DNA from: a virus
Taxonomy: Duplodnaviria > Caudoviricetes
Strand: one strand, 5' to 3'
Virus record (IMG/VR): IMGVR_UViG_3300023218_000040
Span: 64,001-128,000 of that record
Length of the DNA: 64,000 bases
The notes under the pieces: model-generated
What the model was told of the DNA's origin: nothing
Database searches by the model: none
The model's input: only the letters and a program-made list of their open reading frames with translations
Part shown: positions 8,007 through 53,576 of the stretch, in pieces
Position numbering within the stretch: the stretch's first letter is position 1
How the letters are laid out: every line of letters begins with the position of its first letter
Position numbers and translations under genes: made by a program

Positions 8007-8035
8007 CTTGACTTTCTATTTCGGAGTACCCATAT
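8007..8035 (+). promoter_or_regulatory. RpoH/alpha-RpoD-type promoter CTTGAC-N16-CCCATAT facing the hairpin cluster
   Basis: Same geometry as the motifs upstream of thyX, dNMP kinase and rpoH. Confidence 0.45.
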
Positions 8036-8079
8036 GTAAAATACTTCTTGCTTATGATCGTACAACTTATATCTATTCA

Positions 8080-8127
8080 CTTCATGTATAACATTCTTCG
8101 CTAACGCTCAGAATGTTATACATGAAG
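8080..8127. repeat. Perfect 18-bp inverted repeat with 12-nt loop
   Basis: CTTCATGTATAACATTCT-tcgctaacgctc-AGAATGTTATACATGAAG. Confidence 0.9.
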
Positions 8128-8156
8128 GGAAAAAGACACAAGGTTATGCGGTAGCA

Positions 8157-8176
8157 CGTTTGTCTGGCGACAAACG
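8157..8176. repeat. 8-bp hairpin
   Basis: CGTTTGTC-tggc-GACAAACG. Confidence 0.8.
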
Positions 8177-8191
8177 GTAGCTCCCGTTATT

Positions 8192-8215
8192 CCGTTTCGG
8201 TCTAGACCGAAACGG
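8192..8215. repeat. Perfect 24-bp palindrome (possible terminator or origin element)
   Basis: CCGTTTCGGTCTAGACCGAAACGG, just past the stop of the 8226-8840 gene; followed by a G run. Confidence 0.85.
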
Positions 8216-8225
8216 GGGGGGAGGT

Positions 8226-8840
8226 TTAGATAGATAGGGGATCAGGGATACGGTATTGGCTTTCAGGGCGAGGCTTGTAATCTGAGACTGCTATGATAGC
8301 TTGCTCACGATCACAACCATATTCAGTCTGCTTGGAATCAACCTCGTCCCAGAATTCATCTTCTAGTTGTTTCTGTTTACCAACGAATTCATCAGTTGGT
8401 TGCTCACCAGGAAATACCTTGAATCGAGTTTTGGATTTAATGTCTGGATGGTTATCCCAGGTTTCTTTCCAAGCATTCTTGATGATCCATTCGATGTACT
8501 CAACCTTCTCTGCTACGCTATACTCAATACCATCGTTGTGAATATTGGGTGCAGTAATGTGTTTACCGTTGTTCTTGAGCTTTGGGAAAGACGGTAGGAT
8601 ATCAGTATAGCGTTCGTTGTAGTCACAGAGCTTCGCTGCTTGTTCTAACGTGAAGTCCTTACCACGGCATTTTCTCCAAAATGTCTGCTCAATGAACTTT
8701 TGAAACTCTTCACGAGTATCCAGCCAAGGCAAACAAAGCACGTCCATGTACCATTTGGCCATGGCATATTCTTCATCGGCTGTAAAGCATACGAACGAGA
8801 GCGTGCTCCCGTTCGATAGCTTCGTCTCCACTAGTTTCAT
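8226..8840 (-). CDS. Hypothetical protein
   Basis: 204-aa ORF translationally coupled (ATGA) to thyX. Confidence 0.75.
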   Translation of the reverse strand: MKLVETKLSNGSTLSFVCFTADEEYAMAKWYMDVLCLPWLDTREEFQKFIEQTFWRKCRGKDFTLEQAAKLCDYNERYTDILPSFPKLKNNGKHITAPNIHNDGIEYSVAEKVEYIEWIIKNAWKETWDNHPDIKSKTRFKVFPGEQPTDEFVGKQKQLEDEFWDEVDSKQTEYGCDREQAIIAVSDYKPRPESQYRIPDPLSI

Positions 8841-11800
8841 AGCATGAACTTATTCAAGAACTCCGTGATCTCTCGCTGTGAGCAACCTTTATCCTTCAGT
8901 TCTTTTGAAATCGGATCCTTATCGAGTCCACGAAGCAAATCACGGACTACCTCATATTCCATTCTACTCAATTGAGATCCCTCAAGCAAGTAGTCACGAA
9001 AAGCTTCTGTTGCCCATGGCACATGGGGCTCGATCAGTTCCAGAATAGCATCAGCAAATACTCGGATTTCGTACTGAGCATGTGGATCGCAGCGTAGCTT
9101 CAGGAAGTGGAACAGGTTATGTAGGTTACCCGACCAATACATTTGGCTGTACGTGGCAACAGGCAGTACCATACGAGCTAGCTCCCTGGCAATACCTGGG
9201 AAGTCACCAGCCAATTCTGACACACCGTTCTGCTCTAGATACGCTGTAATCGCCTCAGAGACGCTTTCCTCGGTGGGATAGGGGTCTACATTGCCAGCGT
9301 CCGCAGCACGCTTCCTGGCCTCCCTGACGGCTACTACGGCTGCTTCCTTGCACCACTCGATACGGCGGCGAACACCATCGGGTGGAGGAGTCAGATCTCC
9401 ATTTTCATTTGGACCTAGAAGATGAAGGTAAGTCTGATAGCTAGTATCGAATACCTCGTCAACAGCCGCCATGACCGCATTATATTCTTGTTCAGTCAGA
9501 ACGTCACCAGAACGACCCTGGCGGTTGCTGGTGCTTTGTGGAGCTAGATGCCCCAAGTCTGGGTGGTACATCTCTCCATCGAGAACTGAGTAACGTGCGC
9601 TGTACTCGTTGATCGAGTTATGAACAATCATTCCGTTTGCTACGAAATTGTGGTTTGGTCCCTCGACGCAGATGTCATACGTATCTTCTATTCCAATCAA
9701 CTCTATTTTGATGATTTTAGATGGTCGGGCTACCATCAAGTTGCCTTTCCCCTTACCTGCTCGATGCAACAACCCATCTCCATGCTCTTGACCGTGAGCC
9801 CTTCGGTGACAGGAGACACACAATGTTACTAGGTTATCGAAATCGTATGCGTGTTCAGGGTAATCAACAACCGGCAATACATGATGCACTTGGAGTTGAT
9901 TCTTGCTTGAACACTCGTTACATCTGTAGTCGAATTTTTCATGCACTTTTGGTGCTTGTGCAGTGGTCCATGCACCTATGAGTTGGCGTTCTGGGGTGAT
10001 CCCTCCTTTCCAGAAATTGCTATTTTCACCAGAGCGAGCACGCTTAATTGCCGATATGTGATCATCAGAATGAACCAAATTTGTACTATACCCATATACA
10101 TCTTTGTTCCATGGTTTATGACCTTTTTTGAAACGATTCTCACCGTTAGAAAACTGTAGACCATGAATACGAAGCCATTTTCTGATTGTATGGTAGCTAC
10201 AGCCAGCGTTTGATGCTATTTCTTGAACTGAATAACCAAGATTTCGTTGGTTATTCATCCAATTGAAATCCTGGTGTGCCGGTATCCCATTACACATAAC
10301 ATAGGCATCTTTGGTTATACACGCACGATTGTTTGTTACTGTTAAACCAACCGCATCTTCCAACCTCTGCCAACCATCAAGCGTATAAATCTGATGGTCC
10401 TTGGAACATTTGAGAGTCTTACCGTTTTCTAATGTTATTTCGAAGACCTGTTTTGGTCCACTGTATATTACATCATTGATTGTACCAGTTGTGAATTGTT
10501 CAGCGGATTCGTCATACACTCGAAGTAACATCGAACGAATTCTAGTTCTATTGAAATCTCTCAAAGATCTTTTCTGCTTGTCCTTTCTCTTTATCGGTGG
10601 ATTTTCATTCCATTTTCTATGAAGATCTGAAAGCTTCATGTATTTTGCTGTACGAACACCGAGCTTAATATGATCTGGCAACTCGAATGTGATAACAGAA
10701 TCGCCAGACAAACAGAACGTACGGTGGCGGTGCCACTGACGAAATACGAAGATCGGAGCCTTGACGTGAAACTTGAAGTTGCACATCTCGAATGGAGTCG
10801 AATTAGATGACACAAAACCATATTTAGTATTTGCTCCACGTACCATTAAAAAACCACTAGACGTAGTGGCACAATATACACTACCGGTATATTGAGATGT
10901 TGAATGGTATTGCTTCCTACTTTCAAGACTGGTACGCCCGTTTGGAAAATATATATTGACGGTGTAACCGCTTTGGCGTTCACGACAATAATGACTATCT
11001 AAACCTAAACGTGGTGAGATAGCAGACACTATGTCTGTGAGATTTTTGGATGTAGAACTAAATGATATTTGATGTCTATCACTTTTGTGATTTCCATCGC
11101 TTTCAACCAAACCAGTTAGTAGTCCTCGTAGTTCTTCTCCAGTTAGATTACGAAGATTTTCTAGTTGGAAATGTTTGTTGTTTGTTTGTGTATCTATTTC
11201 TAAACAAACTCGTAATTCATCTGGAGTAGTAATGTAGAACCTTGTTGTATCTTTACTATCCACCGAACTGGTGTATTCCCAACCCAATCTGTGAAGTAAA
11301 GAGGTTAAAAACGAAATCTTACGTTCCTTTTTGAATCCAAAACTAATCCTATTTGGACTTGCCACGTGACCATCACCAAGGAACATACCGACGAACGTAT
11401 AGAAATCATCAATCACACCGTTATACGGATGGGTTGAGTATCCTAACATGGATTCAAACCACCCCCACTTTGGCATGTCCTTTGCCCGATATACCTTGAA
11501 ATCGTTCTGATACTTTTCCTTAAACAACATTTTGTGTTCGTCGGTTACAGAGTATGACATTCTTTCATTGGAGAATTCATACATGATTCCATCGTAATCA
11601 AAGGATTTAACTTCTAACTCCTCGACTGTGTAAGAACGGGTATCGGGGTTAGGAACAAGAAAAGTTTCGACGGAATTACATTCACACCATTTCTTCCATC
11701 CTTCAATCGTTAAAACTTCCATATCTGGATGATAGCAATGTAGGTGACGCATGAGGTATCGGATCAACCCCTTATCGGAGTTAACCTTCTTTGTACCCTT

Positions 11801-11995
11801 GCCATATGAGACACGGGCTGCGTTCACAATGGACGAGTCATCGCCCATGAAGTCCACCAGACCGACAAAGCCGGTATCTAGAACCTTCCTGTACTGTGGC
11901 TGCCAGACACGAAACGTCTCATCGTGTTCTGCGCTACGAATAACGAATTCATCATCGAAGTCGTCCGGGACTTCTACTTTCACAAATCGAGTCAT
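8837..11995 (-). CDS. thyX: FAD-dependent thymidylate synthase ThyX precursor with two inteins (spliced product about 374 aa)
   Basis: IVNAARVSY, RHLH|STPFEM, RQWHRHRTF|SINEYSARYS (ThyX motif), RELARMVLP, NLHNLFHFLKLR...HAQYEIR. Confidence 0.95.
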   Translation of the reverse strand: MTRFVKVEVPDDFDDEFVIRSAEHDETFRVWQPQYRKVLDTGFVGLVDFMGDDSSIVNAARVSYGKGTKKVNSDKGLIRYLMRHLHCYHPDMEVLTIEGWKKWCECNSVETFLVPNPDTRSYTVEELEVKSFDYDGIMYEFSNERMSYSVTDEHKMLFKEKYQNDFKVYRAKDMPKWGWFESMLGYSTHPYNGVIDDFYTFVGMFLGDGHVASPNRISFGFKKERKISFLTSLLHRLGWEYTSSVDSKDTTRFYITTPDELRVCLEIDTQTNNKHFQLENLRNLTGEELRGLLTGLVESDGNHKSDRHQISFSSTSKNLTDIVSAISPRLGLDSHYCRERQSGYTVNIYFPNGRTSLESRKQYHSTSQYTGSVYCATTSSGFLMVRGANTKYGFVSSNSTPFEMCNFKFHVKAPIFVFRQWHRHRTFCLSGDSVITFELPDHIKLGVRTAKYMKLSDLHRKWNENPPIKRKDKQKRSLRDFNRTRIRSMLLRVYDESAEQFTTGTINDVIYSGPKQVFEITLENGKTLKCSKDHQIYTLDGWQRLEDAVGLTVTNNRACITKDAYVMCNGIPAHQDFNWMNNQRNLGYSVQEIASNAGCSYHTIRKWLRIHGLQFSNGENRFKKGHKPWNKDVYGYSTNLVHSDDHISAIKRARSGENSNFWKGGITPERQLIGAWTTAQAPKVHEKFDYRCNECSSKNQLQVHHVLPVVDYPEHAYDFDNLVTLCVSCHRRAHGQEHGDGLLHRAGKGKGNLMVARPSKIIKIELIGIEDTYDICVEGPNHNFVANGMIVHNSINEYSARYSVLDGEMYHPDLGHLAPQSTSNRQGRSGDVLTEQEYNAVMAAVDEVFDTSYQTYLHLLGPNENGDLTPPPDGVRRRIEWCKEAAVVAVREARKRAADAGNVDPYPTEESVSEAITAYLEQNGVSELAGDFPGIARELARMVLPVATYSQMYWSGNLHNLFHFLKLRCDPHAQYEIRVFADAILELIEPHVPWATEAFRDYLLEGSQLSRMEYEVVRDLLRGLDKDPISKELKDKGCSQREITEFLNKFML
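9617..10714 (-). mobile_element. Intein 2 in thyX (366 aa) with HNH endonuclease
   Basis: Starts CLSGDS, block B CSKDHQI, HNH CNEC...VHH...NLVTLCVSCH, ends IVHN|S. Confidence 0.92.
10802..11737 (-). mobile_element. Intein 1 in thyX (312 aa) with LAGLIDADG endonuclease
   Basis: Starts CYHPDMEVLT, block B VTDEH, FVGMFLGDG and LTGLVESDG, ends VSSN|S. Confidence 0.9.
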
Positions 11996-12027
11996 GGGGT
12001 TTCCTCCAGGATGGAATTACCTCATGA

Positions 12028-12056
12028 ATATAGGTTCAGCTAGGCTTCTTTTCTAG
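12028..12056 (-). promoter_or_regulatory. RpoH-type promoter CTAGAA-N16-CCTATAT upstream of thyX
   Basis: One mismatch to the rhizobial RpoH-type consensus CTTGAA-N16-CCTATAT as I recall it. Confidence 0.6.
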
Positions 12057-13463: not shown

Positions 13464-13491
13464 ATATCACTCTCGGATGTTCTTTATCCAA

Positions 13492-13520
13492 AGATAGGAA
13501 GACCGAAAATATATATCAAG
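13492..13520 (-). promoter_or_regulatory. RpoH-type promoter CTTGAT-N16-CCTATCT upstream of dNMP kinase
   Basis: Direct motif match; 28 nt upstream of the ATG. Confidence 0.6.
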
Positions 13521-14675: not shown

Positions 14676-14676
14676 G

Positions 14677-15691: not shown

Positions 15692-16684
15692 TTATGCAGC
15701 CTTTTTCTGTTGCATCAACCACTCGCTGAACTGGATGGGCAACTCGTACTTTATACCATATTCCCGAAGATGTCCAGTTAGGCGATTGAGATCCACTTCT
15801 CCGAAGCGAGTCAACAAGTAGACGTAGATCCCTACGAATTCCTTGCCATGACCAGCGTGGAGCTTGCCATTGTCATCTGTATTGCCCCAACGACGATGCA
15901 AAACGTGAGCCAATTCATGCAACAAGATCAACCGGTTACAATGAACGGGAAGCAGACGAATGTCAGTACCGCCAAAAGAATGGCTACCACTCTTGCGGAA
16001 CTTCAGGGCCGGAACCTTCTCACCGAGGTTGATGCAGATATGCTCCAGCATGTTCCGAAGGAACTGCGGCGTGCATCGCTGATGCAGCTTGTCCCGAGAA
16101 ACGACGGTATTGGGCCACACACCGGCATCGGCATCGATCTTGGGACCGATATCGAAAGCCATCTTGTGCTCCCACTTATAGACCTTGGACTTCTGGGAGT
16201 CACGAGATTTGTTGCTATTTTTACGAGTGTAGTGCTCAGGAACTTCGAACGACTCGGCCCAGAACGGAATGGATGCGATGGCATCCTCCATCGAGGAGTA
16301 GGACTCGACCACCTTTCGTTTGGGGTTCTCGGGGTCGGTAACCGTCATGGCGAAGGTGTGGTAGCTGGCCAGAGCGTTCCTGGACGGACGCCATCCGACC
16401 ACATGCTTACCACTAAAGTAGCGCAGGCTGACCACGAAGAAATTACCCTTACCGTTGGGGTTCTTCTCTTCGTGCTCAATGTAGTAACTATCGAGCCGGT
16501 CCAGATCCCATCCGGTGTCCAGTTCGATATAATCCCGCTCGTGATGACCTCGGTAGCTCATTACTGGCTCCTGGGTTCCTTGACTAGATGAGCTTATTAT
16601 ACCACGGTGGTATTTCTTCGTCAAGAATTTTTTTAGGCGGGATAATAACTCGGATGCCGCAGTCCAGTAAGAAATCGCATCCAT
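15692..16684 (-). CDS. SprT-like zinc metallopeptidase domain protein
   Basis: LILLHELAH (HExxH) plus HAGHGKEF. Confidence 0.65.
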   Translation of the reverse strand: MDAISYWTAASELLSRLKKFLTKKYHRGIISSSSQGTQEPVMSYRGHHERDYIELDTGWDLDRLDSYYIEHEEKNPNGKGNFFVVSLRYFSGKHVVGWRPSRNALASYHTFAMTVTDPENPKRKVVESYSSMEDAIASIPFWAESFEVPEHYTRKNSNKSRDSQKSKVYKWEHKMAFDIGPKIDADAGVWPNTVVSRDKLHQRCTPQFLRNMLEHICINLGEKVPALKFRKSGSHSFGGTDIRLLPVHCNRLILLHELAHVLHRRWGNTDDNGKLHAGHGKEFVGIYVYLLTRFGEVDLNRLTGHLREYGIKYELPIQFSEWLMQQKKAA

Positions 16685-20212: not shown

Positions 20213-20286
20213 TGAAGTTTTTCCTGGATGGAAGTTTGAGTTCTTGTGTTATGTTTATAGTTTCTCAAGAAAATCATGCAAAGTTA

Positions 20287-21333: not shown

Positions 21334-21653
21334 TATTGCTTGGGATCGTTGACTTCTAGCTTTCGTAGGTTCTTCAGTTGAACGTATATGTTGTTTTCGC
21401 CATTGGCGGGATATCCCTCAAAGTATCCCTGCTCGTGCCAGAATTCAAGAGTTGCAGCATAGAATCCTGGCTCATTAGGAAAACCATCCATAAAATCCGA
21501 GTTGTCCTCGATGCACAAACCATCCAACCAGTCCTCGGTAATGAGTTGATGCAGATCACGTGGATTTGGTGTACTCACCAAATAGGTAAGAATAGACTCA
21601 CGCAGTCCAATCGCCGCAAAATGGGCATTCTCAATAGCCTTAATCTTCTTCAT
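21333..21653 (-). CDS. Hypothetical protein
   Basis: Start MKKIKAIE preferred (track start 21707 overlaps gp55); TAATG coupling to gp47. Confidence 0.65.
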   Translation of the reverse strand: MKKIKAIENAHFAAIGLRESILTYLVSTPNPRDLHQLITEDWLDGLCIEDNSDFMDGFPNEPGFYAATLEFWHEQGYFEGYPANGENNIYVQLKNLRKLEVNDPKQ

Positions 21654-23124
21654 CTTCTTGAGCCTCGTAGAATTCACGCTCGATACGATCCATCCTAACA
21701 GAGTCATTCTCTAGCTGTCTAGTGTTTGATGGATTGAAACCGTTTTGCTCCAATAAGTCGTCACGAATTTTACGGGCCTTTTTCTCCTTCTCCAAAGTCG
21801 TCAAGAAACTATGATGAACGATCTGGGTGTAGTAGCCGAATGGATTTTGACCTACTTCTGGATCGAACTTTAGTGCTCCGTTCAGTAGAGACACCAGAGC
21901 TTCGCTTCGCATGTCTTCGATGTAGGTATTTCCGGTAAGGAATACAGTACCATTACGACGAGCCATAAAACAGCCGTATTCGGTTTCCGGACACCAAACC
22001 CGTCCCTTGTAATATTCCGTAGGAATGTTTGGATTAAATACTTTGGACTTCCCCGAACGTCCGCTTTTTCCTCCATGGAAGTCGATATTTTCAACCTTGG
22101 AATATTCACCCTTGGCGAATACCCTAACGGTATACGTATCCTTTTTGCCGTGTCCAATAGGAGGTCTGATACGAACTGTTGTTCTTTTACCACTGAGCGT
22201 ACATAACGCCACAAAAAAGTCAATTTGCTCTTCCGATGTTTGTGTGTAATTGGTATACCCATTGGTTTTCCAACCGTCGCCATCAACCATAGTATCAATC
22301 AGTAAACGGCGCTGATTAGTAGATAGGTTCATCAAAAATTTATAGGTTGGAACTTTATTTGGTGCAACCGATTCTATCAACTGGCAGAGTTCTTTGGTCA
22401 AGTAGAATGATACTTGTTCTGGTACATTCTCGCCCACAACACGAGTACGCTTATACTCTGCAATTTGATAACCGAGGTCAGCAACACATGCCCGAATTCT
22501 ATCGGAAAACTCGCCCTCATTCTGATAAATCGTGATGCGGGTGTAGTTGCGGTTTTCGGATAGGTAGTAATTTCCTTCGGTAATAACCCAACCGACCAAT
22601 TCCACGAACGCATCGGAATATACACCACCTGGAGATTCCAAGGCTGTCCCAATCATTACAAGATTGTCCTGTTCACGAAGGTAATCTACTCGGCGCAGTC
22701 CATTTGTTGTCATGAACTTATGTCCTGGAGTAACCAAGGAGTCCATTCCTTGGACAGTCATGCGGAACATATGACCATCATAGTCGTCTTTGAATATGGA
22801 ACGAATTCTTGACCACACAAGTTTACTATCGTCATAAGATAGGATTTGGTCATCGGTAGTTACATCATCGATCCCTAGCCACCCACGTTGTGTCATACAC
22901 TCTGTGTGTTCATCAACGCAATATCCACGCCAGTTGGCTTTCTTGGAGTAGCGGTCCACCAACATCATTAGCATCTTGACTAATTCTTGGGTCATACATT
23001 GGGCGGGGGTCACATCGGGATTTTTCTTTTGCTTCTCAGCTAGCATAGTCTTGGATAGTCGAATTTGCTCCATAAGGCTTGCATTGTTTAGGTAATTGGT
23101 GGTTCTTTTCTTTCTGGTAACCAT
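21640..23124 (-). CDS. gp55: Late-transcription sigma factor gp55 precursor with an intein (spliced product 163 aa)
   Basis: NYLNN, NWRGY|TYIEDMRSEAL, KFDPEVGQNPFGYYTQI..HSFL...EKEKK; upstream of gp47-gp46 as in T4. Confidence 0.88.
   Translation of the reverse strand: MVTRKKRTTNYLNNASLMEQIRLSKTMLAEKQKKNPDVTPAQCMTQELVKMLMMLVDRYSKKANWRGYCVDEHTECMTQRGWLGIDDVTTDDQILSYDDSKLVWSRIRSIFKDDYDGHMFRMTVQGMDSLVTPGHKFMTTNGLRRVDYLREQDNLVMIGTALESPGGVYSDAFVELVGWVITEGNYYLSENRNYTRITIYQNEGEFSDRIRACVADLGYQIAEYKRTRVVGENVPEQVSFYLTKELCQLIESVAPNKVPTYKFLMNLSTNQRRLLIDTMVDGDGWKTNGYTNYTQTSEEQIDFFVALCTLSGKRTTVRIRPPIGHGKKDTYTVRVFAKGEYSKVENIDFHGGKSGRSGKSKVFNPNIPTEYYKGRVWCPETEYGCFMARRNGTVFLTGNTYIEDMRSEALVSLLNGALKFDPEVGQNPFGYYTQIVHHSFLTTLEKEKKARKIRDDLLEQNGFNPSNTRQLENDSVRMDRIEREFYEAQEDEED
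21928..22920 (-). mobile_element. Intein in gp55 (331 aa) with LAGLIDADG endonuclease
   Basis: Starts CVDEHTECMTQRGW; block B VTPGHKF; LVGWVITEG and DTMVDGDG; ends VWCPET..CFMARRNGTVFLTGN|T. Confidence 0.9.
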
Positions 23125-23220
23125 TAAAGCATTCCTCTTTTCCCCTCTTGAGTGTTTCTCAAGAAATTAATATGTTAGGAACATGAACACTTTCCTCATA
23201 AAAGTCAATAGATTTTCCTT

Positions 23221-23227
23221 GTAAATA
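23221..23227 (+). promoter_or_regulatory. Late promoter motif GTAAATA for the baseplate operon
   Basis: 19 nt upstream of ATG 23247. Confidence 0.65.
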
Positions 23228-23246
23228 TCCGAAGAGGAAACTACCT

Positions 23247-27186: not shown

Positions 27187-29868
27187 ATGACAGCTAGACC
27201 ATATATTAACGGAATAGTGAATGCGGCTAATGCTGAGCAGGCATCTGGACGGGGCGTACCCAACATCCAGCATCAGCTTGGACTGTTTCATATCGGCCTT
27301 GTAATGGATGATTTTGATGAACAACGATTGGGGCAGGTATGGGTGTATCTCCCTGGTATCTCTGCACGTCGATTCTCCGAGGATGATCGTAGTTTGCCGC
27401 TATACGGTGGAACGGTTCCAGACAGAGACCGGGAAGGTGCTGTTCTTCGGTGGGACCAAAAGCTAAGACTAGGATGGCTTCGATGCGCTCCAATGTTTCC
27501 GTTCTTTGGTGGTGACGATTTTCGTGTCCAGAGAAGTTCAGATGGTGACATTCGAAATGCCACAAAGGGTGACGTGCAAAGCTATGGTTTCTGGGCACAA
27601 CCACGTATCGGAGACTATGTTGGTGTGCTATTTGCCAATGGTGATCCGCAGAGCGGATATTGGATTGGTATGCCACCCAAATACAATCGTAATTTCATGG
27701 TTCCAGGAAATCCGGGAAGGTTACCAGAAGAACTTGATGGCAAGACCGACACCGATGGTGGTGCCGTTCACAAACTTACCCGACAAATCAAGGAAGAAGC
27801 TTTACAAGTAGAGGGAGATGCTTTAGTACCATCTTTGGACAAGGCACGGCGCATCAATGTCAGTGTGCCACGTCCAGCAGGTTCTCCTGTTACTCAGACA
27901 CAGGACGACACTAGAGCGCCACCAGTTGAAGTAGAGCTTACCAATGTTCTTGCATCAACGGAGTTTGCATTTAACACCCAAAGTGCAGGACTTTTGTGTG
28001 ACCCGCTTCGTGGTGCTGGAAACTCCTCCGCTCGCAGAGAAAGCCCGTCATATATTGTGGGCTTCAAATCCCCAGGCTGGAATTTCGATAGCGAGAAGAA
28101 GAACCTCAACACTGGTAATGGATCTACCACTCGATTTCAAGACGAAGCTTCGGTATCTCGGTATCAGGCTGTGGCTACTGCTGGACATCAGTTTGTCATG
28201 GATGATCATCCCGATTTTCAGGGCGTCCGTATGCGTACGTCTAAAGGACATCAGATATATCTGAATGATAGCTGTGATGATCCCTTCATCTACATTTCCA
28301 CATCGCAGGGTAAGGTGTGGATTGAGCTAGGAGACAGTGGCAAGGTCAACATTTTCGCTGAGAACTCGGTGTCTGTTCACTCCCGAAAGGATATCAATCT
28401 GACTGCTGATCGAGATTTGAACATTGACGTTCAGCAAGACTTCAAGCTGATGGTTCGTGGTGACACTGAAATGGCACTGAAGGGCCGTGTTGACATTGAG
28501 ACAGGTCGTAATAACAGAACACAAGATGGATTAAACTTTGAGTCTCGTGGTGACATTGGAACGGGTGCTAGAAAGGATTTGTTCATTCACAACTATGGGA
28601 ATGTGGACTGGACAGTCGATGATCACTTGGATATGACTATTGGTAATGTCGCCGGTTTGACTGGCGGTATGGATGTGTTGGTAAAGAAAGGTGACCTTGA
28701 TGTTCAAGCCGAAACTGATGTGGATGTATTGGCTGGAAACACGATGACGCTGGAAACTACCAGCGGTCGCCTTGATGTGCGATCTGGTAGCACGATGCAC
28801 CACACGTCTGCAAGCCAGATGAATCTTCGTACAGAGGGCGGTAACATTCATCAGACTGCTGCTAGCCAAATTCATCTTAACAGCCCTGGAAATCAAGCAG
28901 TTTCGGCAGACACTGCTACTCCTGCTGATGAAGCGACGAAGCCAACCATTCGCCAGTTGATTCAAGTTCCAATTGCTCCAACCGAAGAAGAGATTAAGTT
29001 TTGTCGTCGAACCAGTGACACTCACAACACATTGGATGAAGCCATTGTTCCTCAGCACCAGCCATGGCCAGAAGCATGTACCACCATACTCGGGTTTAAT
29101 GCCTCTGGCGACGAGGGAGAAGTGGTATCACGTTCCGGTGCCGCAAGACCAGAGGCTAGCCATCCGCTACCAAAGGTGCAGAAGGATGGCGTGTTTAATG
29201 CTCAGCAGTACAACTCCAACAACCAGGAAGAGGCTCCAGTATACGAGAAGATATTCGATCCGGACCCTGGTACATTTAACGTATGTTCGTCGTATACCAC
29301 ATCACAACGAATGATCGACTTCTTGAAGAAGGAAGAGGGTTCAAGGAGCAAGGCATACCGAGATGCTGGTAAGTGGGCTATTGGATTTGGTCATCAGATC
29401 AATGTAGGAGATACAATCTTTGGTGACACTATCAATGGTAGAGTAACACAGGAAGACATCGCTCGATTGAACAGAACCAACGGTTCTTTGACTATTAGTG
29501 AGGAAGAGAAGGAACGACTTCTTAGGGAAGATTTGGCCGAGTTCGAAGAGGCTGTTTGCCGAATCGTTACAACCGAGATTACTCAGTCTCAATTTGATGC
29601 CCTGGTGTCTTTTACTTACAACACAGGACCAGGAAACCTATCCAGGCTTGTCAAAACAAGTAATTTAAACAGTGGTGATTTCACTAATGTTCCACAGGCG
29701 TGGATGAGATATCATCTTTGTACCAGATGCCCACCAAACAGGCGTGCGATTATAGAGGGGGTTCTACGAGGTCGCCGCCAGCGAGAGCTTGAACAGTTCT
29801 TCGCTTACAGCGGCGACCCCGTTGAACCGAGGACTGGACAGAAGTCCATTGTGGATGCACTCGTTTAA
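27187..29868 (+). CDS. gp5: gp5-like central spike: OB-fold, beta-helix repeats, C-terminal phage lysozyme
   Basis: QPRIGDYVGVLFANGDP; GHQFVMDD, RMRTSKGHQIYLND; KEEG...AYRD.G.WAIGFGH, ITQSQFDALVSFTYN. Confidence 0.85.
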   Translation: MTARPYINGIVNAANAEQASGRGVPNIQHQLGLFHIGLVMDDFDEQRLGQVWVYLPGISARRFSEDDRSLPLYGGTVPDRDREGAVLRWDQKLRLGWLRCAPMFPFFGGDDFRVQRSSDGDIRNATKGDVQSYGFWAQPRIGDYVGVLFANGDPQSGYWIGMPPKYNRNFMVPGNPGRLPEELDGKTDTDGGAVHKLTRQIKEEALQVEGDALVPSLDKARRINVSVPRPAGSPVTQTQDDTRAPPVEVELTNVLASTEFAFNTQSAGLLCDPLRGAGNSSARRESPSYIVGFKSPGWNFDSEKKNLNTGNGSTTRFQDEASVSRYQAVATAGHQFVMDDHPDFQGVRMRTSKGHQIYLNDSCDDPFIYISTSQGKVWIELGDSGKVNIFAENSVSVHSRKDINLTADRDLNIDVQQDFKLMVRGDTEMALKGRVDIETGRNNRTQDGLNFESRGDIGTGARKDLFIHNYGNVDWTVDDHLDMTIGNVAGLTGGMDVLVKKGDLDVQAETDVDVLAGNTMTLETTSGRLDVRSGSTMHHTSASQMNLRTEGGNIHQTAASQIHLNSPGNQAVSADTATPADEATKPTIRQLIQVPIAPTEEEIKFCRRTSDTHNTLDEAIVPQHQPWPEACTTILGFNASGDEGEVVSRSGAARPEASHPLPKVQKDGVFNAQQYNSNNQEEAPVYEKIFDPDPGTFNVCSSYTTSQRMIDFLKKEEGSRSKAYRDAGKWAIGFGHQINVGDTIFGDTINGRVTQEDIARLNRTNGSLTISEEEKERLLREDLAEFEEAVCRIVTTEITQSQFDALVSFTYNTGPGNLSRLVKTSNLNSGDFTNVPQAWMRYHLCTRCPPNRRAIIEGVLRGRRQRELEQFFAYSGDPVEPRTGQKSIVDALV

Positions 29869-30770
29869 GAAACGAAGAGATCCGTAGGATCGATACCCAT
29901 TTCATCGGCAATGCGGTGTACCTCTTTGTACACTTTGTCGCTTGCCTTGTTGCGTAGCTGACGAACACGTTCCTTCGAGATCTCCAGTTCATTACCCAGA
30001 GTTTCAAGGGTTTGCTGACCATCTTCTTTCTCGGTTAGAACCTGCGAGATAAAGATACGGCGTTCACGATCTGTGAGCACGTTCTTCATTGCCTCGTTGA
30101 CAATCGTTTTCTGGAACGTTACAACGTCGTCATCGATTACCACTGCCATAGAACCACTATCAGTATTCAACTCAGCGATGGTGTCCTCACGGGTTAAGCT
30201 GTCATCATCAGGGTTTGTGATAGGATCGTTCAGGGACTCGTGGGGACGCTGGAACATATCGTACATTTGCTGTACTTCCGTGATGGACACCTTGTGCTCC
30301 TCAGCGAGTTCCTGAGCTACCTTCGTGGTCAGCTTGAACTGACCAGTACGCATCATCTCGATGGCAATCCTCTTTCGTAATGCGTAGAATAGTCGCTTCT
30401 TGGTGTGGTTGGTACAAACATGCATCAGGAAATAGTTTTTGGTGATGTACCCCTGCATCATACCTTTGACGCACACCTTGGCATAGGTTGCGAAACGAAC
30501 CCCCGCTCCCAGGTCGAACCTTTCAGCGGCCTCAATGAGCGCAACCATACCCTCGGACAGCATTTCATCGGTTGGCATCTGGTAGCCCGAAAGCTCCTTG
30601 ATAGCTCGCCAAATGATTGGCCCGTAGTGGATGACGATTTTCGTCAGGTAAGTTTCGTTGTCTCCGGTCTCTCGCCACTTTTCGAATAGCTCTCGCTCTT
30701 CGTCAGCGGACAAGAGGGTTCGATATTGCTTGACAAAAATCTTTGCATCGTTTGATATTACTTCTTTCAT
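29865..30770 (-). CDS. rpoH: RpoH (sigma32)-like sigma70-family factor
   Basis: LLSADEEREL, EGMVALIEAAERFD....VRFATYA, RpoH-box-like TNHTKKRLFYALRK, region 4 TLETLGNELEISKERVRQL. Confidence 0.88.
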   Translation of the reverse strand: MKEVISNDAKIFVKQYRTLLSADEERELFEKWRETGDNETYLTKIVIHYGPIIWRAIKELSGYQMPTDEMLSEGMVALIEAAERFDLGAGVRFATYAKVCVKGMMQGYITKNYFLMHVCTNHTKKRLFYALRKRIAIEMMRTGQFKLTTKVAQELAEEHKVSITEVQQMYDMFQRPHESLNDPITNPDDDSLTREDTIAELNTDSGSMAVVIDDDVVTFQKTIVNEAMKNVLTDRERRIFISQVLTEKEDGQQTLETLGNELEISKERVRQLRNKASDKVYKEVHRIADEMGIDPTDLFVS

Positions 30771-30813
30771 ACTAACCCCCAGACTCGTTTGTCTTTTGGC
30801 GGATAAATGGATG

Positions 30814-30820
30814 GTAAATA
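30814..30820 (+). promoter_or_regulatory. Late promoter motif GTAAATA for the gp25-gp6 genes
   Basis: 66 nt upstream of ATG 30887. Confidence 0.55.
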
Positions 30821-30848
30821 GTCTCTATGCCGTGAGGGCACAGAGACT
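30820..30848. repeat. Hairpin between the face-to-face promoters
   Basis: AGTCTCT-a-TGCC-gtgag-GGCA-c-AGAGACT. Confidence 0.7.
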
Positions 30849-30857
30849 GGCTGGTAT

Positions 30858-30886
30858 ATATAAGTCCACAGTAACAGGAAATCAAG
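30858..30886 (-). promoter_or_regulatory. RpoH-type promoter CTTGAT-N16-CTTATAT upstream of rpoH
   Basis: Direct motif match; the -35 abuts the gp25 ATG. Confidence 0.6.
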
Positions 30887-47515: not shown

Positions 47516-47536
47516 TGAGTAACTTGGGGATTGAAT

Positions 47537-49633: not shown

Positions 49634-49636
49634 ATA
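49630..49636 (+). promoter_or_regulatory. Late promoter motif GTAAATA for the tail fibre genes
   Basis: 24 nt upstream of ATG 49661. Confidence 0.65.
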
Positions 49637-49660
49637 TGAATAACAGAGGTCGAAAACAAT

Positions 49661-50323: not shown

Positions 50324-50335
50324 GGGCAAAGGATA

Positions 50336-51937
50336 ATGGCAATCGTACTCATTCCATATGGACAACTACAAAGTGGTAGACTAGGCATCGCAGTTGATGA
50401 CGTTAGTGGTCAGCCGATTGCCAGTGCTATCGAAGTTCAAGCTACTTTGCCGTTGATCGGTGATGCAGATAACTTTGATGGTCGAATGGTGTTTGCCATT
50501 GATACTCAGATCTTGTATGTATTCAAAGCTGGCGGTCCAGAATGGTTTCCGTTGGAGGGTATTCCAGTTGTGGTTGGTGTGTGTAGTGGTTCCCCTGCAC
50601 CAAATGGCCAGCCTAGACCTCCAGTTACTGGTAGCGAAGTCACCGGTACCATGTTTTATTGCACGGACACCGATGTAACGTTTGTATGGGATGGTGGAGT
50701 TTGGCAGCCAATTGGTGGTCGATTTGCTGGTCGTTGGATTGAGCAAAAGAACATTTCAACTGGTGTTGCTGGACCAAACGGAGACACCTTCGCTCTTGGT
50801 GGAACACCAGTCGCAGGAGAGTTTGTAGAGGTCTTCTTGGATGGTGTACGTCAAGTAAGAAACCCTGGTGGTGACTACAATGTAGTTGGTGCTAATGTTA
50901 TCTTTTCTGCACCAATTCCGGTTGATGTTGAGGTATTCACCCGCACATTCATTTCAACTGTTTTGGAGGGTCCAGCGATTCTTCCTAACACCCAGGTTAC
51001 CAATGTAAAGCACACTGCTGTCGTGGGTCAAACAGATTTTGATATTGGAATTCCGGCGGTAGAACCTAGTGGAGTATTTGTATTCGTTAATGGTCTGGTC
51101 CAGTGCGGTGGTGGAGTTGACTATTTGGTTAGCACTTCTGACACCACGATCACTAGTATTACTCGTTCCGGAACCACTGCTACGGCAACCACGTTGAACC
51201 CTCATGGAGCTAGCATTGGCTCAGATGTAGAAATCTCTGGTGCTACCGAATCCGATTATAATGGTACATTCACGATTACTGCTATTCCGACTGGCTCTAG
51301 TTTCCAGTTCACAATTCCAGTCACTGCCCCACTATCGGCTACCGGAAATCCGGTTATCTTCTACACTCCTCCATTTATCAATGATGAGATCATCTTCACT
51401 TCTCCGCTTTCTGGTGGAGAGCTTGTAGACATCCGGGTGTTCAAAAGCCTTGTGACAGCACCATCAGACGGAGAAGACAACACGGCATCTAATATCGGTA
51501 CTGGTGAAGGTATATTCTCGGCCAAGAGTGGCGTGGATCTGAGGTTCAAAACTCTTGAGGCTGGACCAAACATCAACATCGTTGATCTTGGAAATGAGCT
51601 TCAGATCTCGACTTCTGTTGGTGCGACCTTCGAGGGTCGTAACGGCATCAACACAAACTTGCATTTGCTTGCAGACACAGAGAGCTACATTGGCGTAAGA
51701 AATACGTCTTTTATTGTAACTATTGATGTGTCAACTGTGCCAGCAGGAACTGCTGGTTCTGGTCGTCGTGTAGTGATTACCGATGAATCGGGCGGTGCAG
51801 GAATAAACAACATTCTGATCTCACACGTAGGTGCCACGTTCAGCGGAGGAGCATCGCCGCTTATCATCAACACGAACCATGGTTCCAAGACCATCGTGTT
51901 TGATGGATCGAACTGGCACATCGTGGCAGAGACATAA
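50336..51937 (+). CDS. Tail fibre / baseplate structural protein with beta-sandwich repeats
   Basis: VFLDGVRQ..DY and VFVNGLVQ..DY repeats; ITSITRSGTTATATT..PHG..DYNGTFTIT insert. Confidence 0.7.
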   Translation: MAIVLIPYGQLQSGRLGIAVDDVSGQPIASAIEVQATLPLIGDADNFDGRMVFAIDTQILYVFKAGGPEWFPLEGIPVVVGVCSGSPAPNGQPRPPVTGSEVTGTMFYCTDTDVTFVWDGGVWQPIGGRFAGRWIEQKNISTGVAGPNGDTFALGGTPVAGEFVEVFLDGVRQVRNPGGDYNVVGANVIFSAPIPVDVEVFTRTFISTVLEGPAILPNTQVTNVKHTAVVGQTDFDIGIPAVEPSGVFVFVNGLVQCGGGVDYLVSTSDTTITSITRSGTTATATTLNPHGASIGSDVEISGATESDYNGTFTITAIPTGSSFQFTIPVTAPLSATGNPVIFYTPPFINDEIIFTSPLSGGELVDIRVFKSLVTAPSDGEDNTASNIGTGEGIFSAKSGVDLRFKTLEAGPNINIVDLGNELQISTSVGATFEGRNGINTNLHLLADTESYIGVRNTSFIVTIDVSTVPAGTAGSGRRVVITDESGGAGINNILISHVGATFSGGASPLIINTNHGSKTIVFDGSNWHIVAET

Positions 51938-51952
51938 TTGGAGATATAGAAC

Positions 51953-52585
51953 ATGGTAACCAGGACAACAAGAGATGTCATGGACTTGGGAGGACCGGGT
52001 GGAGTCAACCGTCCTATCACACTTGGTATTGATGTTGACGGAGACTGCGGTGCGAACTTTACCATCGATGGTGTAACCATTGGTGATACGGTCCCGTGTG
52101 ACGGAACATTCGTTAATTTGACTGCTACAAACTTAGTAGTCACTGGCACCATTGACGGGACTGGTGCTACTCTAATTGGTTCATGGCAAGCTACATACTC
52201 TGACATCGCTGAGAGATACCTTGCGGACAAGGAGTACGCTCCTGGAACTGTAGTGAAAATTGGTGGAGAAAAAGAAATCACCGCCACGACCCGTTCGGCA
52301 GATCCGGATGTGTTTGGTGTTATTTCCACTCAACCAGCGTACGTCTTGAATTCTGGCGAAGAGGGGCTATATTTGTCAGTGGTGCTGGTTGGTCGTATTC
52401 CAGTTCGAGTAGTCGGACCAGTAACAAAGGGTTCACGCATGATTGCTTCGAATGTTCCTGGTGTAGCACGGGCAGCCAAGGGTTCAGAGAAGGGATGCAA
52501 CGTACCAATCTTCGGTCGTTCATTGGAAGATGACGACCGTGAAGAAGAGCGTCTGGTAGAAGTAGCATTCGTAACCGTACGATAA
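51953..52585 (+). CDS. Tail fibre protein with peptidase G2/IMC-like autoproteolytic domain
   Basis: DIAERY....YAPGTVV.IGG...FGVIST.PAY.LN...VVLVGRIPVRV.G.V.KG..MI.S..PG.A. Confidence 0.65.
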   Translation: MVTRTTRDVMDLGGPGGVNRPITLGIDVDGDCGANFTIDGVTIGDTVPCDGTFVNLTATNLVVTGTIDGTGATLIGSWQATYSDIAERYLADKEYAPGTVVKIGGEKEITATTRSADPDVFGVISTQPAYVLNSGEEGLYLSVVLVGRIPVRVVGPVTKGSRMIASNVPGVARAAKGSEKGCNVPIFGRSLEDDDREEERLVEVAFVTVR

Positions 52586-52595
52586 GAGGTTCAAG

Positions 52596-53546
52596 ATGGC
52601 GTACGTATTAGACGGTCTCATCGAGGCGATTGACTATAACACATTCAGTGACGATACTGATTTCACCTATGGTGTTGGTAACGGAGATTCTGGTTACGGA
52701 CAGACCGATTTTCCATTAATCAACGTTCCTGTAGGCAAGTTGGTTGAAGCCCAGGAATGGGAAGATTTGGTCAATGCTATCTCTACCTGCGCCGTTCACC
52801 AGGGCACTATCACCACACCCAATCCATTTACTGGTCTACTTCCGGAAGTTGCTGCGGGTGAGGTTGTTGAAGCCCACGAGTCTGATCCTCCAACTAGTGA
52901 CCCTGTTGATTTGGATAGCACAATTGCTCTCATTCAGACCAATCGCTTGAACTTTGATACTGGATCGGTAACGGTATTCACAGATCAACTTGTTAGCATT
53001 CGTGCTGCTGCATGGTCAAGTTCCATTCAACATCGTTTCACTGTCACTTTCGCAAACGCTGATCAAGCCCGTTATTACTTTAATTCTGGTGGTCAGGTTC
53101 GTATTCGTGGTTCTCGTAGCGGTGGTGCAGCCACCCCGCAGAATACAAGTTGGACCACACTGCTATCCAGCATGGGAACAGTCATCATGGGCGTACATGG
53201 TACGACCAGCACCGGTTCCGCAGACTTCATTGCATCCGGTGTCGGATACTTTGAGTTGACGACTGGCTTTCAGACCATCTTCAGTCTTGCCAGCACTGGC
53301 GCATATGCTGCCAACATGGTGACCATCGAGGCTCGCACTATGGACCCAACTCCGGTTGGAGCCAATAATGACAACGGTCGTCGTTTGGAGTTCCGTGTGA
53401 CTTACACTGATGCACATACCAACTCATTCTTTGATAGCGTGTCTGGAACTATTACGTCAAACGTAGACCTACAGCGAGCAACTTTCCCGTTGACAATTGC
53501 TGCTCCATCATTAGCAACTGTTGTTCCTCTGACCTCTGGCGGATAA
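52596..53546 (+). CDS. Virion structural protein
   Basis: GYGQT...VEAQEWEDL, FTVTFANADQARYYFNSGG; Thr/Ser/Gly-rich. Confidence 0.7.
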   Translation: MAYVLDGLIEAIDYNTFSDDTDFTYGVGNGDSGYGQTDFPLINVPVGKLVEAQEWEDLVNAISTCAVHQGTITTPNPFTGLLPEVAAGEVVEAHESDPPTSDPVDLDSTIALIQTNRLNFDTGSVTVFTDQLVSIRAAAWSSSIQHRFTVTFANADQARYYFNSGGQVRIRGSRSGGAATPQNTSWTTLLSSMGTVIMGVHGTTSTGSADFIASGVGYFELTTGFQTIFSLASTGAYAANMVTIEARTMDPTPVGANNDNGRRLEFRVTYTDAHTNSFFDSVSGTITSNVDLQRATFPLTIAAPSLATVVPLTSGG

Positions 53547-53547
53547 G

Positions 53548-53576
53548 GTTGAAACTCCACTAGTTTTGGAATATAT
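53548..53576 (+). promoter_or_regulatory. Possible RpoH-type promoter GTTGAA-N16-AATATAT at the head of the glycan cluster
   Basis: Weaker match; ATG 53582 follows 5 nt later. Confidence 0.35.

What the first reader, a model, noticed from the sequence alone, without database searches (positions are those of the whole stretch)
8007..53576. Phage RpoH-like sigma with a matching promoter class: a three-tier cascade
Seen: CT(T/A)GA(T/A/C)-N16-C(C/T)(T/C)AT(A/C)T at 12028(-, thyX), 13492(-, dNMP kinase), 30858(-, rpoH itself) and 8007(+), with a weaker copy at 53548(+, glycan cluster). These are distinct from the TTGAC(A/T)-N17-TA(A/T)(A/C)AT sites and the late TAAATA sites. Known, from memory: rhizobial RpoH promoters resemble CTTGAA-N16-CCTATAT, but alphaproteobacterial RpoD promoters (CTTGAC-N17-CTATAT) overlap this geometry. 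Inference: host sigma70 for early genes, a captured heat-shock sigma for middle genes with positive autoregulation, and intein-gated gp55 for late genes.
Basis: partly seen in the sequence, partly recalled or inferred. Interest (0 to 1): 0.75.

Follow-up and report, generated by a model that had tools for sequence, protein, structure and literature searches.

The report
Phage RpoH-like sigma and its promoters
A giant T4-like phage carries its own heat-shock-type sigma factor whose gene sits behind a conserved heat-shock-type promoter, but in this genome only a handful of other promoters resemble it, so a separate 'middle' promoter class is plausible and not shown.

Summary
The five sites exist at the stated coordinates. 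All are intergenic, and four face a gene. The sigma gene (29865-30770, minus strand) is real. It scores best against sigma-32 models but below their cut-offs. It belongs to a monophyletic phage clade that keeps one position, between gp25 and gp5.

Comparison with relatives shows conserved promoters before the sigma gene, dNMP kinase, thyX, gp55, gp26 and the glycan-cluster head. The sigma and dNMP-kinase promoters keep a TTGA(A/T) -35 in all 17 copies read. Neighbouring sigma70-type promoters keep TTGAC plus TGn-TAnnAT. A 347-kb relative shows three enriched upstream words: TTGACA, TTGAAA and TAAATA.

The case for a promoter class in this genome is weak:
- TTGAAA, TTGATA and TTGATT are not enriched here.
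- A literature-based RpoH consensus gives 3 hits against 0.9 expected.
- The site geometry equals that of sigma70 promoters.
- Site 8007 has a TTGAC -35 and no gene downstream.
- The dUTPase site is not conserved as this type.
- The phage hsp20 gene uses a late promoter.
- The sigma has lost the tryptophan pair used for -10 melting.

The parts
29865..30770 (-). RpoH-like sigma factor gene (301 aa)
   Evidence: Pfam finds Sigma70 regions 2 and 4. The best NCBIfam match is sigma-32 PRK07500 at 153 bits against a cut-off of 315, while RpoS scores 68. The best solved structure is E. coli RpoH 8hkc at 87 bits, against 45 for SigA. The gene belongs to a monophyletic phage clade with conserved gene order.
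30858..30886 (-). Promoter of the sigma gene, CTTGAT-N16-CTTATAT, abutting the gp25 start codon
   Evidence: Relatives keep (C/A)TTGAA-N16-(C/A)C(C/A)ATAT at the same place. The -35 lies between the gp25 Shine-Dalgarno sequence and its ATG on the other strand and is still conserved.
30809..30823 (+). Late promoter for gp25 (GGATGGTAAATAGTC) inside the leader of the sigma gene
   Evidence: A TATTTACCATC core (11 nt) is the most conserved stretch of the intergenic region; most relatives keep nearly the whole 15-nt word. TAAATA is the enriched late-promoter word.
13492..13520 (-). Promoter of dNMP kinase (gene 12729-13463), CTTGAT-N16-CCTATCT
   Evidence: All five relatives keep CTTGA(A/T) and, 17 nt on, TA(T/C/G)(C/T)TT. 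It is the top hit in this genome of a matrix built from the TTGAAA promoters of the 347-kb relative, at 17.8 bits.
12028..12056 (-). Promoter of thyX (gene 8837-11995, two inteins), CTAGAA-N16-CCTATAT
   Evidence: The -10 (C)CTATATT is kept in 4 of 4 genomes. The -35 is weak and variable: CTAGAA, CTAGAT, TTGCCA, CTACCA. Pfam finds Thy1 plus intein, HNH and LAGLIDADG domains.
8007..8035 (+). Promoter-like site CTTGAC-N16-CCCATAT with no gene downstream
   Evidence: Exact pattern match. Only a 16-codon frame follows. The next 184 nt fold with z = -8.55 and have no Rfam match. Conservation could not be tested.
7939..7970 (-). TTGAAA-N17-TAGCTT site about 70 nt before the gp26-like baseplate gene, upstream of its late promoter
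   Evidence: Second-best hit of the G005-derived matrix, at 15.9 bits. G002 has CTTGAC-N16-ACCATCT at the matching place.
53548..53576 (+). Weaker copy at the head of the glycan cluster (gene 53606-53953), GTTGAA-N16-GAATATAT
   Evidence: A promoter is kept before the orthologous gene in G002 (TTGACA-N17-TATCTT) and G001 (TTGACT-N17-TATATT). The -10 type is kept but the -35 type is not.
23180..23208 (-). Promoter of gp55, TTGACT-N17-CATGTT
   Evidence: Relatives have cCTTGACTTTC-N-CAT(A/C/G)TT, and the two most distant have TTGAAA or TTGATT. A palindrome ACTTTC-N5-GAAAGT lies in the spacer.
21640..23124 (-). gp55 late sigma factor interrupted by an intein
   Evidence: PHROG late sigma families 12791 and 234 (4e-30, 9e-24) match both ends of the protein. 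Pfam finds an intein splicing domain between them. Relatives lack the insertion.
16596..16624 (-). Sigma70-type comparison promoter, TTGACG-N14-TGG-TATAAT, before the 289-aa gene
   Evidence: Five genomes keep TTGAC(A/G), TGn and a TA-initial -10 with A fifth (TAnnAT in four, TGTTATAAC in G005).

Best explanation
The window encodes an old, phage-specific sigma factor descended from the RpoH (sigma-32) branch. It is kept at one place, antisense inside the baseplate gene cluster, throughout a family of T4-like jumbo phages.

The proposed mechanism is as follows. Every step is inferred, and no step is shown:
1. A host holoenzyme first transcribes the sigma gene from its single promoter, CTTGA(A/T)-N16-(C/A)C(C/T/A)ATAT.
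2. The protein then joins host core RNA polymerase and reads that promoter (positive feedback) plus a small set of similar phage promoters: dNMP kinase, probably thyX, gp26 and the glycan-cluster head, and possibly gp55.
3. This set forms a middle tier between the TTGACA/TGn-TAnnAT early promoters and the gp55-dependent TAAATA late promoters.
4. The late promoter for gp25 lies inside the sigma gene's leader and fires the other way. At late times it should compete with the sigma promoter and shut it off.

What is shown: the gene, its family resemblance, the conserved gene order, and the conservation of the promoters.
For: Protein:
- Sigma-32 models beat every other sigma family by a wide margin (153 against 68 bits; 87 against 45 bits).
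- An RpoH-box-like segment is present, KKRLFYALRK against QRKLFFNLRK.
- The -35 recognition helix ISKERVRQ is identical to that of alphaproteobacterial RpoH, and E. coli E265, R266 and R268 are kept (PMC10216364).

Conserved promoters:
- The sigma gene keeps a TTGA(A/T) -35 in 12 of 12 relatives, whose proteins are 37-75% identical. dNMP kinase keeps it in 5 of 5. The spacers have diverged.
- Sigma70-type promoters in the same loci keep TTGAC (one TAGAC) plus an extended -10.
- The sites match the S. meliloti RpoH1 and RpoH2 consensus, CTTGAA-N15-16-CCTATAT and CTTGCC-N15-16-CCTATCT (PMC4843759).

Relative G005:
- In upstream regions, sense strand, TTGAAA occurs 33 times against 6.5 expected (P 1.7e-13). 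TTGACA occurs 42 against 6.3 and TAAATA 55 against 4.4. TTGAAT, TTGAAG and TTGAAC are not enriched.
- Its sigma, gp55 and dNMP-kinase promoters belong to this TTGAA(A/G) set.
- A matrix built from that set ranks this genome's dNMP-kinase promoter first.
Against: - In this genome TTGAAA (1.1x), TTGATA (1.3x) and TTGATT (1.1x) are not enriched upstream of genes.
- The a priori RpoH consensus is not enriched in any of five genomes.
- The matrix built from the sigma promoters finds no second strong site in G001 or G002.
- An unsupervised motif search gave only a weak -10 motif for the TTGAAA set.
- The geometry equals that of sigma70 promoters, and RpoH and RpoD motifs overlap in alphaproteobacteria (PMC3616915).
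- The sigma's -10 melting and recognition segment has diverged. The WW or HW pair is VC here and varies across the clade, so an RpoH-type -10 is not predicted.
- The dUTPase site is a sigma70 extended -10 promoter in relatives.
- The glycan-cluster promoter switches between TTGAAA and TTGAC.
- The phage hsp20 gene has a late promoter in three genomes.
- A host RpoH would have the same -35 preference.
Confidence: 0.45

Rival explanations
1. The sites are ordinary promoters read by host sigma factors (RpoD, or host RpoH for the sigma gene). The phage sigma has other targets. One candidate is the host heat-shock and chaperone regulon, which it would switch on for virion assembly. Another is phage promoters with a -10 not yet recognised.
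For: - The geometry is identical to TTGACA-N17-TATAAT, and TATATT and TATCTT are acceptable sigma70 -10 elements.
- This genome shows no enrichment of the RpoH-type -35 or of an a priori consensus.
- RpoH and RpoD motifs overlap in S. meliloti (PMC3616915).
- The sigma's region 4.2 helix equals that of cellular RpoH, so it could read host heat-shock promoters.
- Other T4 relatives raise sigma-32 activity by another route (PMC3486835).
- The sigma gene needs a host holoenzyme to start in any case.
Against: - The -35 fifth base stays A or T in all 17 sigma and dNMP-kinase promoters, while neighbouring sigma70-type promoters keep C. This is unexpected if one sigma reads both.
- About 20-30 TTGAAA promoters are spread over G005, too many to leave to scarce host RpoH while the phage encodes its own.
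- The diverged region 2.3-2.4 argues against faithful reading of host CCCCATNT or CCTATNT -10 elements.
Confidence: 0.3
2. The 'class' is a collection made after the fact from unlike promoters. Only the sigma and dNMP-kinase promoters share a real TTGA(A/T) type. Sites 8007, 17608 and 195399 are TTGAC sigma70-type promoters. thyX is a promoter driven by its -10 alone. Site 53548 is of mixed type.
For: - The pattern allows 2-3 bases at six positions and was built from the hits.
- Three of the six genome hits carry TTGAC.
- The thyX -35 is not conserved.
- The dUTPase site changes type in relatives.
- Orthologues of 53548 carry TTGACA or TTGACT.
- The G005 matrix gives 6 hits at 15 bits or more against 2.0 in shuffles.
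Against: - All six hits are intergenic, where 11% of the sequence lies.
- Six orthologous promoter positions (sigma, dNMP kinase, thyX, gp55, gp26, glycan head) share a -10 with T as fifth base in most copies (16 of 22 read, most exceptions at gp55), and lack the TGn extension.
- An independent first-reader note lists the same gene set in a related genome (untested).
Confidence: 0.2

Closest known systems
Cellular RpoH (sigma-32), above all the alphaproteobacterial RpoH1 and RpoH2 of Sinorhizobium meliloti and their promoters (CTTGAA-N15-16-CCTATAT; CTTGCC-N15-16-CCTATCT; PMC4843759)
   Same: It is the best-scoring family. An RpoH-box-like segment is present, and the region 4.2 helix is identical. 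The sigma, dNMP-kinase and thyX promoters match these consensus sequences in spacing and -10.
   Different: Identity to any cellular RpoH is only 30-36%. Scores lie far below the curated cut-offs. The protein sits on a long separate phage branch and has lost the tryptophan pair of region 2.3. It is encoded inside a phage baseplate cluster. No link to heat shock is seen, since the phage hsp20 gene is a late gene.
Bacillus phage SPO1 sigma cascade (host sigma, then gp28 for middle genes, then gp33/34 for late genes); from my own knowledge
   Same: A host sigma would be followed by a phage sigma for middle genes and another phage sigma for late genes.
   Different: Here the late tier is the T4-type gp55. 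The middle sigma is a full-length RpoH relative rather than a small phage-specific sigma. Dependence of any promoter on it has not been shown.
Phage T4 transcription programme (early sigma70; middle MotA/AsiA sigma appropriation; late gp55/gp33/gp45 at TATAAATA)
   Same: The virion and replication genes are T4-like. gp55 and an enriched TAAATA late word are present, as are sigma70-type early promoters.
   Different: No AsiA or MotA match was found, but the controls were silent and the record is about 55% complete. The middle tier would use a separate sigma rather than remodelled sigma70.
Full-length sigma factors of 'group 2' (gp23-type) jumbo phages noted by Iyer et al. 2021 (PMC7824862)
   Same: That survey reports that T4-like jumbo phages encode, beside the minimal gp55-type sigma, a more complete sigma close to cellular ones.
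   Different: The paper calls them RpoD-like and assigns no promoters. This clade is RpoH-like and has a conserved position and a conserved promoter of its own.

Membership tests
RpoH (sigma-32) family | Sigma-70 family regions 2 and 4 | tested here: met
   PF04542 scores 39 bits and PF04545 scores 27 bits, both over their cut-offs.
RpoH (sigma-32) family | Score over the curated cut-off of an RpoH equivalog model | tested here: not met
   NF005693 scores 153 against 315. TIGR02392 scores 143-144 against 323. These are still the best families by more than 75 bits.
RpoH (sigma-32) family | RpoH box, Q(R/K)(K/R)LFFNLR | tested here: inconclusive
   The aligned segment reads KKRLFYALRK here and (K/R)K.LF(F/Y).(L/M)RK across the clade, so it is related but altered.
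RpoH (sigma-32) family | Region 4.2 recognition helix and the -35 contact residues (E. coli E265, R266, R268) | tested here: met
   ISKERVRQ is identical to alphaproteobacterial RpoH. The contact residues are taken from PMC10216364.
RpoH (sigma-32) family | Aromatic wedge pair in region 2.3 (E. coli H107-W108; WW in alphaproteobacteria) | tested here: not met
   It is VC in this phage. Across the clade it reads VC, IC, TW, WW, HW, CY or TY.
RpoH (sigma-32) family | Branches within cellular RpoH in a tree | tested here: inconclusive
   The phage clade is monophyletic (100/100) on a stem of 1.95 changes per site. It joins near the base of RpoH with weak support (86/44), and no gamma- or betaproteobacterial RpoH was in the tree.
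RpoH (sigma-32) family | Controls heat-shock genes and is itself controlled by DnaK/J and FtsH | not testable with these tools
   The only related hint is that the phage hsp20 gene has a TAAATA late promoter in three genomes.
RpoH-dependent promoter class | -35 CTTGAA | tested here: inconclusive
   This is met at the sigma gene in relatives and at dNMP kinase. Here both read CTTGAT. thyX has CTAGAA and 8007 has CTTGAC.
RpoH-dependent promoter class | More copies than chance when scanned with a consensus fixed beforehand | tested here: not met
   Counts are 3 against 0.9 (G000), 3 against 1.35 (G005), and 0 in G001, G002 and G004. TTGAAA is not enriched upstream of genes in G000.
RpoH-dependent promoter class | Kept before orthologous genes in diverged relatives | tested here: met
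   This holds for the sigma gene, dNMP kinase and thyX (its -10 only). The glycan head and gp26 hold partly. dUTPase does not. Site 8007 could not be tested.
RpoH-dependent promoter class | Transcript starts at the sites and dependence on the sigma | not testable with these tools
   No RNA run holds this DNA.
T4-type late transcription | gp55 and an enriched TAAATA-type late promoter | tested here: met
   PHROG families 234 and 12791 match. TAAATA occurs 44 times on the sense strand against 3.2 expected upstream of genes. gp33 and gp45 were not sought.

The most novel reading that the evidence does not exclude
A whole family of T4-like jumbo phages has replaced the MotA/AsiA middle mode with an RpoH-derived sigma. 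This sigma has lost the tryptophan wedge, switches itself on from a conserved RpoH-type promoter, and drives nucleotide-metabolism genes and the late sigma gp55. It is switched off when the gp25 late promoter embedded in its own leader fires.
Probability: 0.3. Interest if true: 0.7.

Novelty: new variant of a known kind. Interest (0 to 1): 0.5.

Why it matters
T4-like phages outside the enterobacterial group lack MotA and AsiA, and how they time their middle genes is an open question. A conserved RpoH-derived sigma with a self-promoter offers a concrete, testable answer for one large uncultured family. It would also be a natural case of a group-3 sigma working without the conserved tryptophan pair. 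The comparative data define a short list of promoters that can be tested directly: the sigma gene, dNMP kinase, thyX, gp55, gp26 and the glycan-cluster head. If host sigmas read these promoters instead, the finding shrinks to an annotated extra sigma of unknown target.

Tried and rejected
- Megablast of 29000-33000 against phage records found no match.
- Sequencing-run search listed no RNA holder, so no transcript starts can be read.
- Rfam on the whole window found nothing.
- The metagenome scan with the sigma alignment used generic RpoH peptides. It returned 79 cellular rpoH loci and one phage locus.
- The viral scan with dNMP kinase alone found nothing. The scan with its alignment found four useful relatives.
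- The hairpin between the sigma -10 and the late promoter has no conserved structure in nine relatives and was dropped.
- Pairing of CCATCC with the Shine-Dalgarno sequence in the sigma leader was inconsistent between relatives and was dropped.
- An unsupervised motif search on the G005 TTGAAA set gave a weak motif at scattered offsets. The hand-aligned CC-(C/T)A..T -10 is therefore not independently confirmed.
- None of 80 cellular rpoH genes has an RpoH-type promoter in its upstream flank (about 240 nt), so co-capture of gene and promoter has no support.
- AsiA and MotA models found nothing, but the controls were silent and the record is about 55% complete, so this says little.
- PHROG annotation of genes behind G005 TTGAAA promoters gave mostly unknown functions and no functional theme.
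- The nearest cellular RpoH hits are alphaproteobacterial, but the peptide used for the scan favours them. The phage tmRNA matches the betaproteobacterial model best, below its threshold. The host class is left open.


Full report
**What the window is.** The window is bases 64001-128000 of a 204,014-bp viral record with 46.6% G+C. CheckV rates the record about 55% complete. A 99% identical copy of the sigma protein lies on a 360-kb contig, so the true genome is probably a jumbo phage of about 350 kb. The genes are T4-like:
- gp25, a gp5-lysozyme and gp53;
- a gp26-type baseplate protein;
- gp46 and gp47 nuclease subunits;
- thyX with two inteins, and dNMP kinase;
- gp55 interrupted by an intein.

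**The observation.** The weaker copy at 53548(+) is present. The whole record has six exact matches, all intergenic. Three lie 29-88 nt before thyX, dNMP kinase and the sigma gene. Site 8007(+) faces no open reading frame, only 184 nt that fold far better than shuffles (z -8.55) and match no Rfam family.

The pattern was built from its own hits. A consensus fixed from the literature gives 3 hits against 0.9 expected. Written out, CTTGAH-N16-CYYATMT is TTGAHN-N17-YATMTN, the geometry of an ordinary sigma70 promoter. What sets the sites apart is the fifth -35 base, the bases before the -10, and a T at the fifth -10 base.

**The sigma factor.** The 301-aa protein has sigma-70 regions 2 and 4.
- Sigma-32 models score 144-153 bits and RpoS scores 68, but the curated RpoH cut-offs are 315-323.
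- The best solved structure is E. coli RpoH (8hkc, 87 bits), and the next is SigA at 45 bits.
- The RpoH box is recognisable but altered, KKRLFYALRK.
- The region 4.2 helix ISKERVRQ is identical to alphaproteobacterial RpoH, including the residues that PMC10216364 shows to contact the -35 element.
- The aromatic pair that wedges open the -10 (H107-W108 in E. coli, WW in alphaproteobacteria) is VC here. It varies across the phage clade: VC, IC, TW, WW, HW, CY, TY. The residues after it also differ.

The -35 preference is therefore predicted to be RpoH-like. The -10 preference is not predictable.

**Relatives of the sigma.** Homologues of 37-99% identity occur in metagenomes. Identity then drops to about 33% for cellular RpoH. 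In a tree the phage proteins form one clade (100/100) on a stem of 1.95 changes per site. The clade joins near the base of RpoH with weak support. Every relative with enough flanking DNA keeps the gene between gp25 (divergent) and gp5 (convergent), apart from one locus where gp5 is missing. This is an old phage lineage and not a recent capture.

**Conservation of the promoters.**
- *Sigma gene.* Upstream of the gene, about ten relatives keep (C/A)TTGAA-N16-(C/A)C(C/A)ATAT, placed directly against the gp25 start codon. The -35 lies between the gp25 Shine-Dalgarno sequence and its ATG on the other strand. That stretch is not normally conserved, so the conservation speaks for promoter function.
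- *dNMP kinase.* It keeps CTTGA(A/T) and, 17 nt on, TA(T/C/G)(C/T)TT in five genomes.
- *thyX.* It keeps (C)CTATATT in four genomes but has a weak, shifting -35.
- *gp55.* It keeps cCTTGACTTTC-N-CAT(A/C/G)TT in the nearer relatives. The two most distant have TTGAAA or TTGATT.
- *gp26-like gene and the glycan-cluster head.* Both also keep promoters with T as the fifth -10 base (TATATT, TATCTT, TAGCTT, CATCTT), with either -35 type.
- *Sigma70-type promoters.* The 289-aa gene after gp46 keeps TTGAC(A/G)-N14-TGn plus a TA-initial -10 with A fifth in five genomes. Several other early promoters keep T(T/A)GAC plus an extended -10.
- *dUTPase.* The site in this genome is replaced in nine relatives by TTGACT plus TGGTATCAT, a sigma70 form.

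The fifth -35 base is A or T in 17 of 17 sigma and dNMP-kinase promoters, and C in nearly all promoters of the other kind. Two promoter types therefore stay distinct over long divergence.

**Whole-genome view.** I assembled four relatives that carry the sigma: G005 (347 kb), G002, G001 and G004.
- In G005, upstream regions in the sense orientation hold 42 TTGACA (6.3 expected), 33 TTGAAA (6.5 expected, P 1.7e-13) and 55 TAAATA (4.4 expected). TTGAAT, TTGAAG and TTGAAC are not enriched.
- Its TTGACA promoters are stereotyped, with a palindromic spacer followed by TGGTAGACT.
- Its TTGAAA promoters lack the TGG. They tend to have CC before a -10 whose fifth base is T. An unsupervised search recovers only a weak -10 motif for them.
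- In the window's own genome TTGACA (2.7x), TTGACT (3.4x) and TAAATA (13.9x) are enriched, but TTGAAA, TTGATA and TTGATT are not.
- A matrix built from 18 G005 TTGAAA promoters ranks the dNMP-kinase promoter first in this genome, at 17.8 bits. The gp26 site is second, and thyX and 53548 rank lower. In total there are 6 hits at 15 bits or more against 2.0 in shuffles.
- A matrix built from the sigma promoters finds no second strong site in G001 or G002, but about ten intergenic ones in G005.

**How it most likely works.** The sigma gene has one promoter, so a host holoenzyme must start it. Because the protein has the RpoH -35 helix and its own promoter has the RpoH -35, positive feedback is the simplest reading. 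The few promoters with the same -35 would form a small middle set. The late promoter for gp25 (core TATTTACCATC conserved; full word GGATGGTAAATAGTC) lies about 20-30 nt inside the sigma leader on the other strand. Polymerase bound there would overlap the sigma promoter, which gives a plausible late shut-off. All of this is inference.

**Points against.**
- RpoH and RpoD motifs overlap in S. meliloti, to the point that its promoter map expected many false RpoH calls (PMC3616915).
- Host RpoH would share the -35 preference.
- The sigma's -10 recognition segment has diverged.
- The phage hsp20 gene, a classic RpoH target in cells, has a TAAATA promoter in three genomes.

A serious rival is that the sigma acts on host chaperone genes. 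Another T4 relative is known to stabilise sigma-32 (PMC3486835).

**What is known already.** Sigma cascades in phages are textbook (SPO1, and T4 gp55). Iyer et al. 2021 noted full-length sigmas in T4-like jumbo phages without assigning promoters (PMC7824862). My literature searches found no paper describing a phage RpoH-like sigma with its promoters. On this genome another note mentioned the hsp20 gene (e1-5362869).

**Verdict.** The sites and the sigma are real. The self-promoter and several others are conserved. A second -35 class is evident in a relative. In this window the 'class' is a handful of heterogeneous sites, and which sigma reads them cannot be settled by sequence.

Noticed in passing
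window 8042-8225 (+): This 184-nt stretch has no open reading frame and folds into three hairpins, one an 18-bp perfect stem (-77 kcal/mol, z -8.55). It lies just after the 8007(+) promoter-like site and just past the end of the convergent gene 8226-8762. It has no Rfam match. It could be a small RNA or a two-way terminator region.
   Followed up: partly
window 23125-23246; also 20225-20260; L007, L144-L146, G001 and G002 at the matching place: A palindrome of the form ACTTTC-N5-GAAAGT (variants TTTCTTGAGAAAC and TTTCTCAAGAAA) lies in the spacer of the gp55 promoter. It recurs about 30 nt downstream and is conserved in relatives. It looks like an operator for an unknown regulator of the late sigma gene.
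   Followed up: no
window 30771-30823 (-): Beyond the embedded late promoter, the leader of the sigma gene keeps primary sequence in relatives (CCGTCATGGAAAAACAAAC; CCGCCAAAAGACAAAC here). No consistent structure was found.
   Followed up: partly
window 29865-30770 (-), residues 99-100: The tryptophan pair of sigma region 2.3 is replaced by Val-Cys in this phage and varies within the clade, although the protein is otherwise well conserved.
   Followed up: partly
genome 55111-55611 (-), 8.4-8.9 kb before the window; L344:1924-1988 (-): The phage hsp20 gene has a late-type promoter. Its leader is conserved in three genomes (AACCTTGCT...GGAGGA) and resembles the UUGCU/Shine-Dalgarno pairing of ROSE RNA thermometers. 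Rfam ROSE_3 matches there only weakly (16.7 bits, E 0.49).
   Followed up: partly
window 8837-11995, 16896-19808, 21640-23124: Three genes in 15 kb carry inteins or homing-endonuclease insertions. thyX has two, with LAGLIDADG and HNH domains. The gp46-like SbcC has a LAGLIDADG domain. gp55 has one. Relatives have the uninterrupted genes.
   Followed up: partly
G005 (L310-L327), e.g. 166390, 204828, 225019, 276096: The 347-kb relative has about 25 nearly identical early promoters, cTTGACAaaCCCtgGGGtttcTGGTAGACT, whose spacer is a palindrome. The TTGAAA promoters share part of that spacer.
   Followed up: partly
genome 149491-149775 (L099:3491-3775): The phage's permuted tmRNA passes the Rfam permuted-tmRNA model at 95 bits. 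Among the class models it scores best with the betaproteobacterial one (68.7 bits, below threshold), so an alphaproteobacterial host should not be assumed.
   Followed up: partly
genome 201981-202004 (outside the window): There are three tandem copies of TTGACTTC, followed by TCTCAAGAAAAC and a TATCAT -10. This gives overlapping -35 elements before a small early gene.
   Followed up: no
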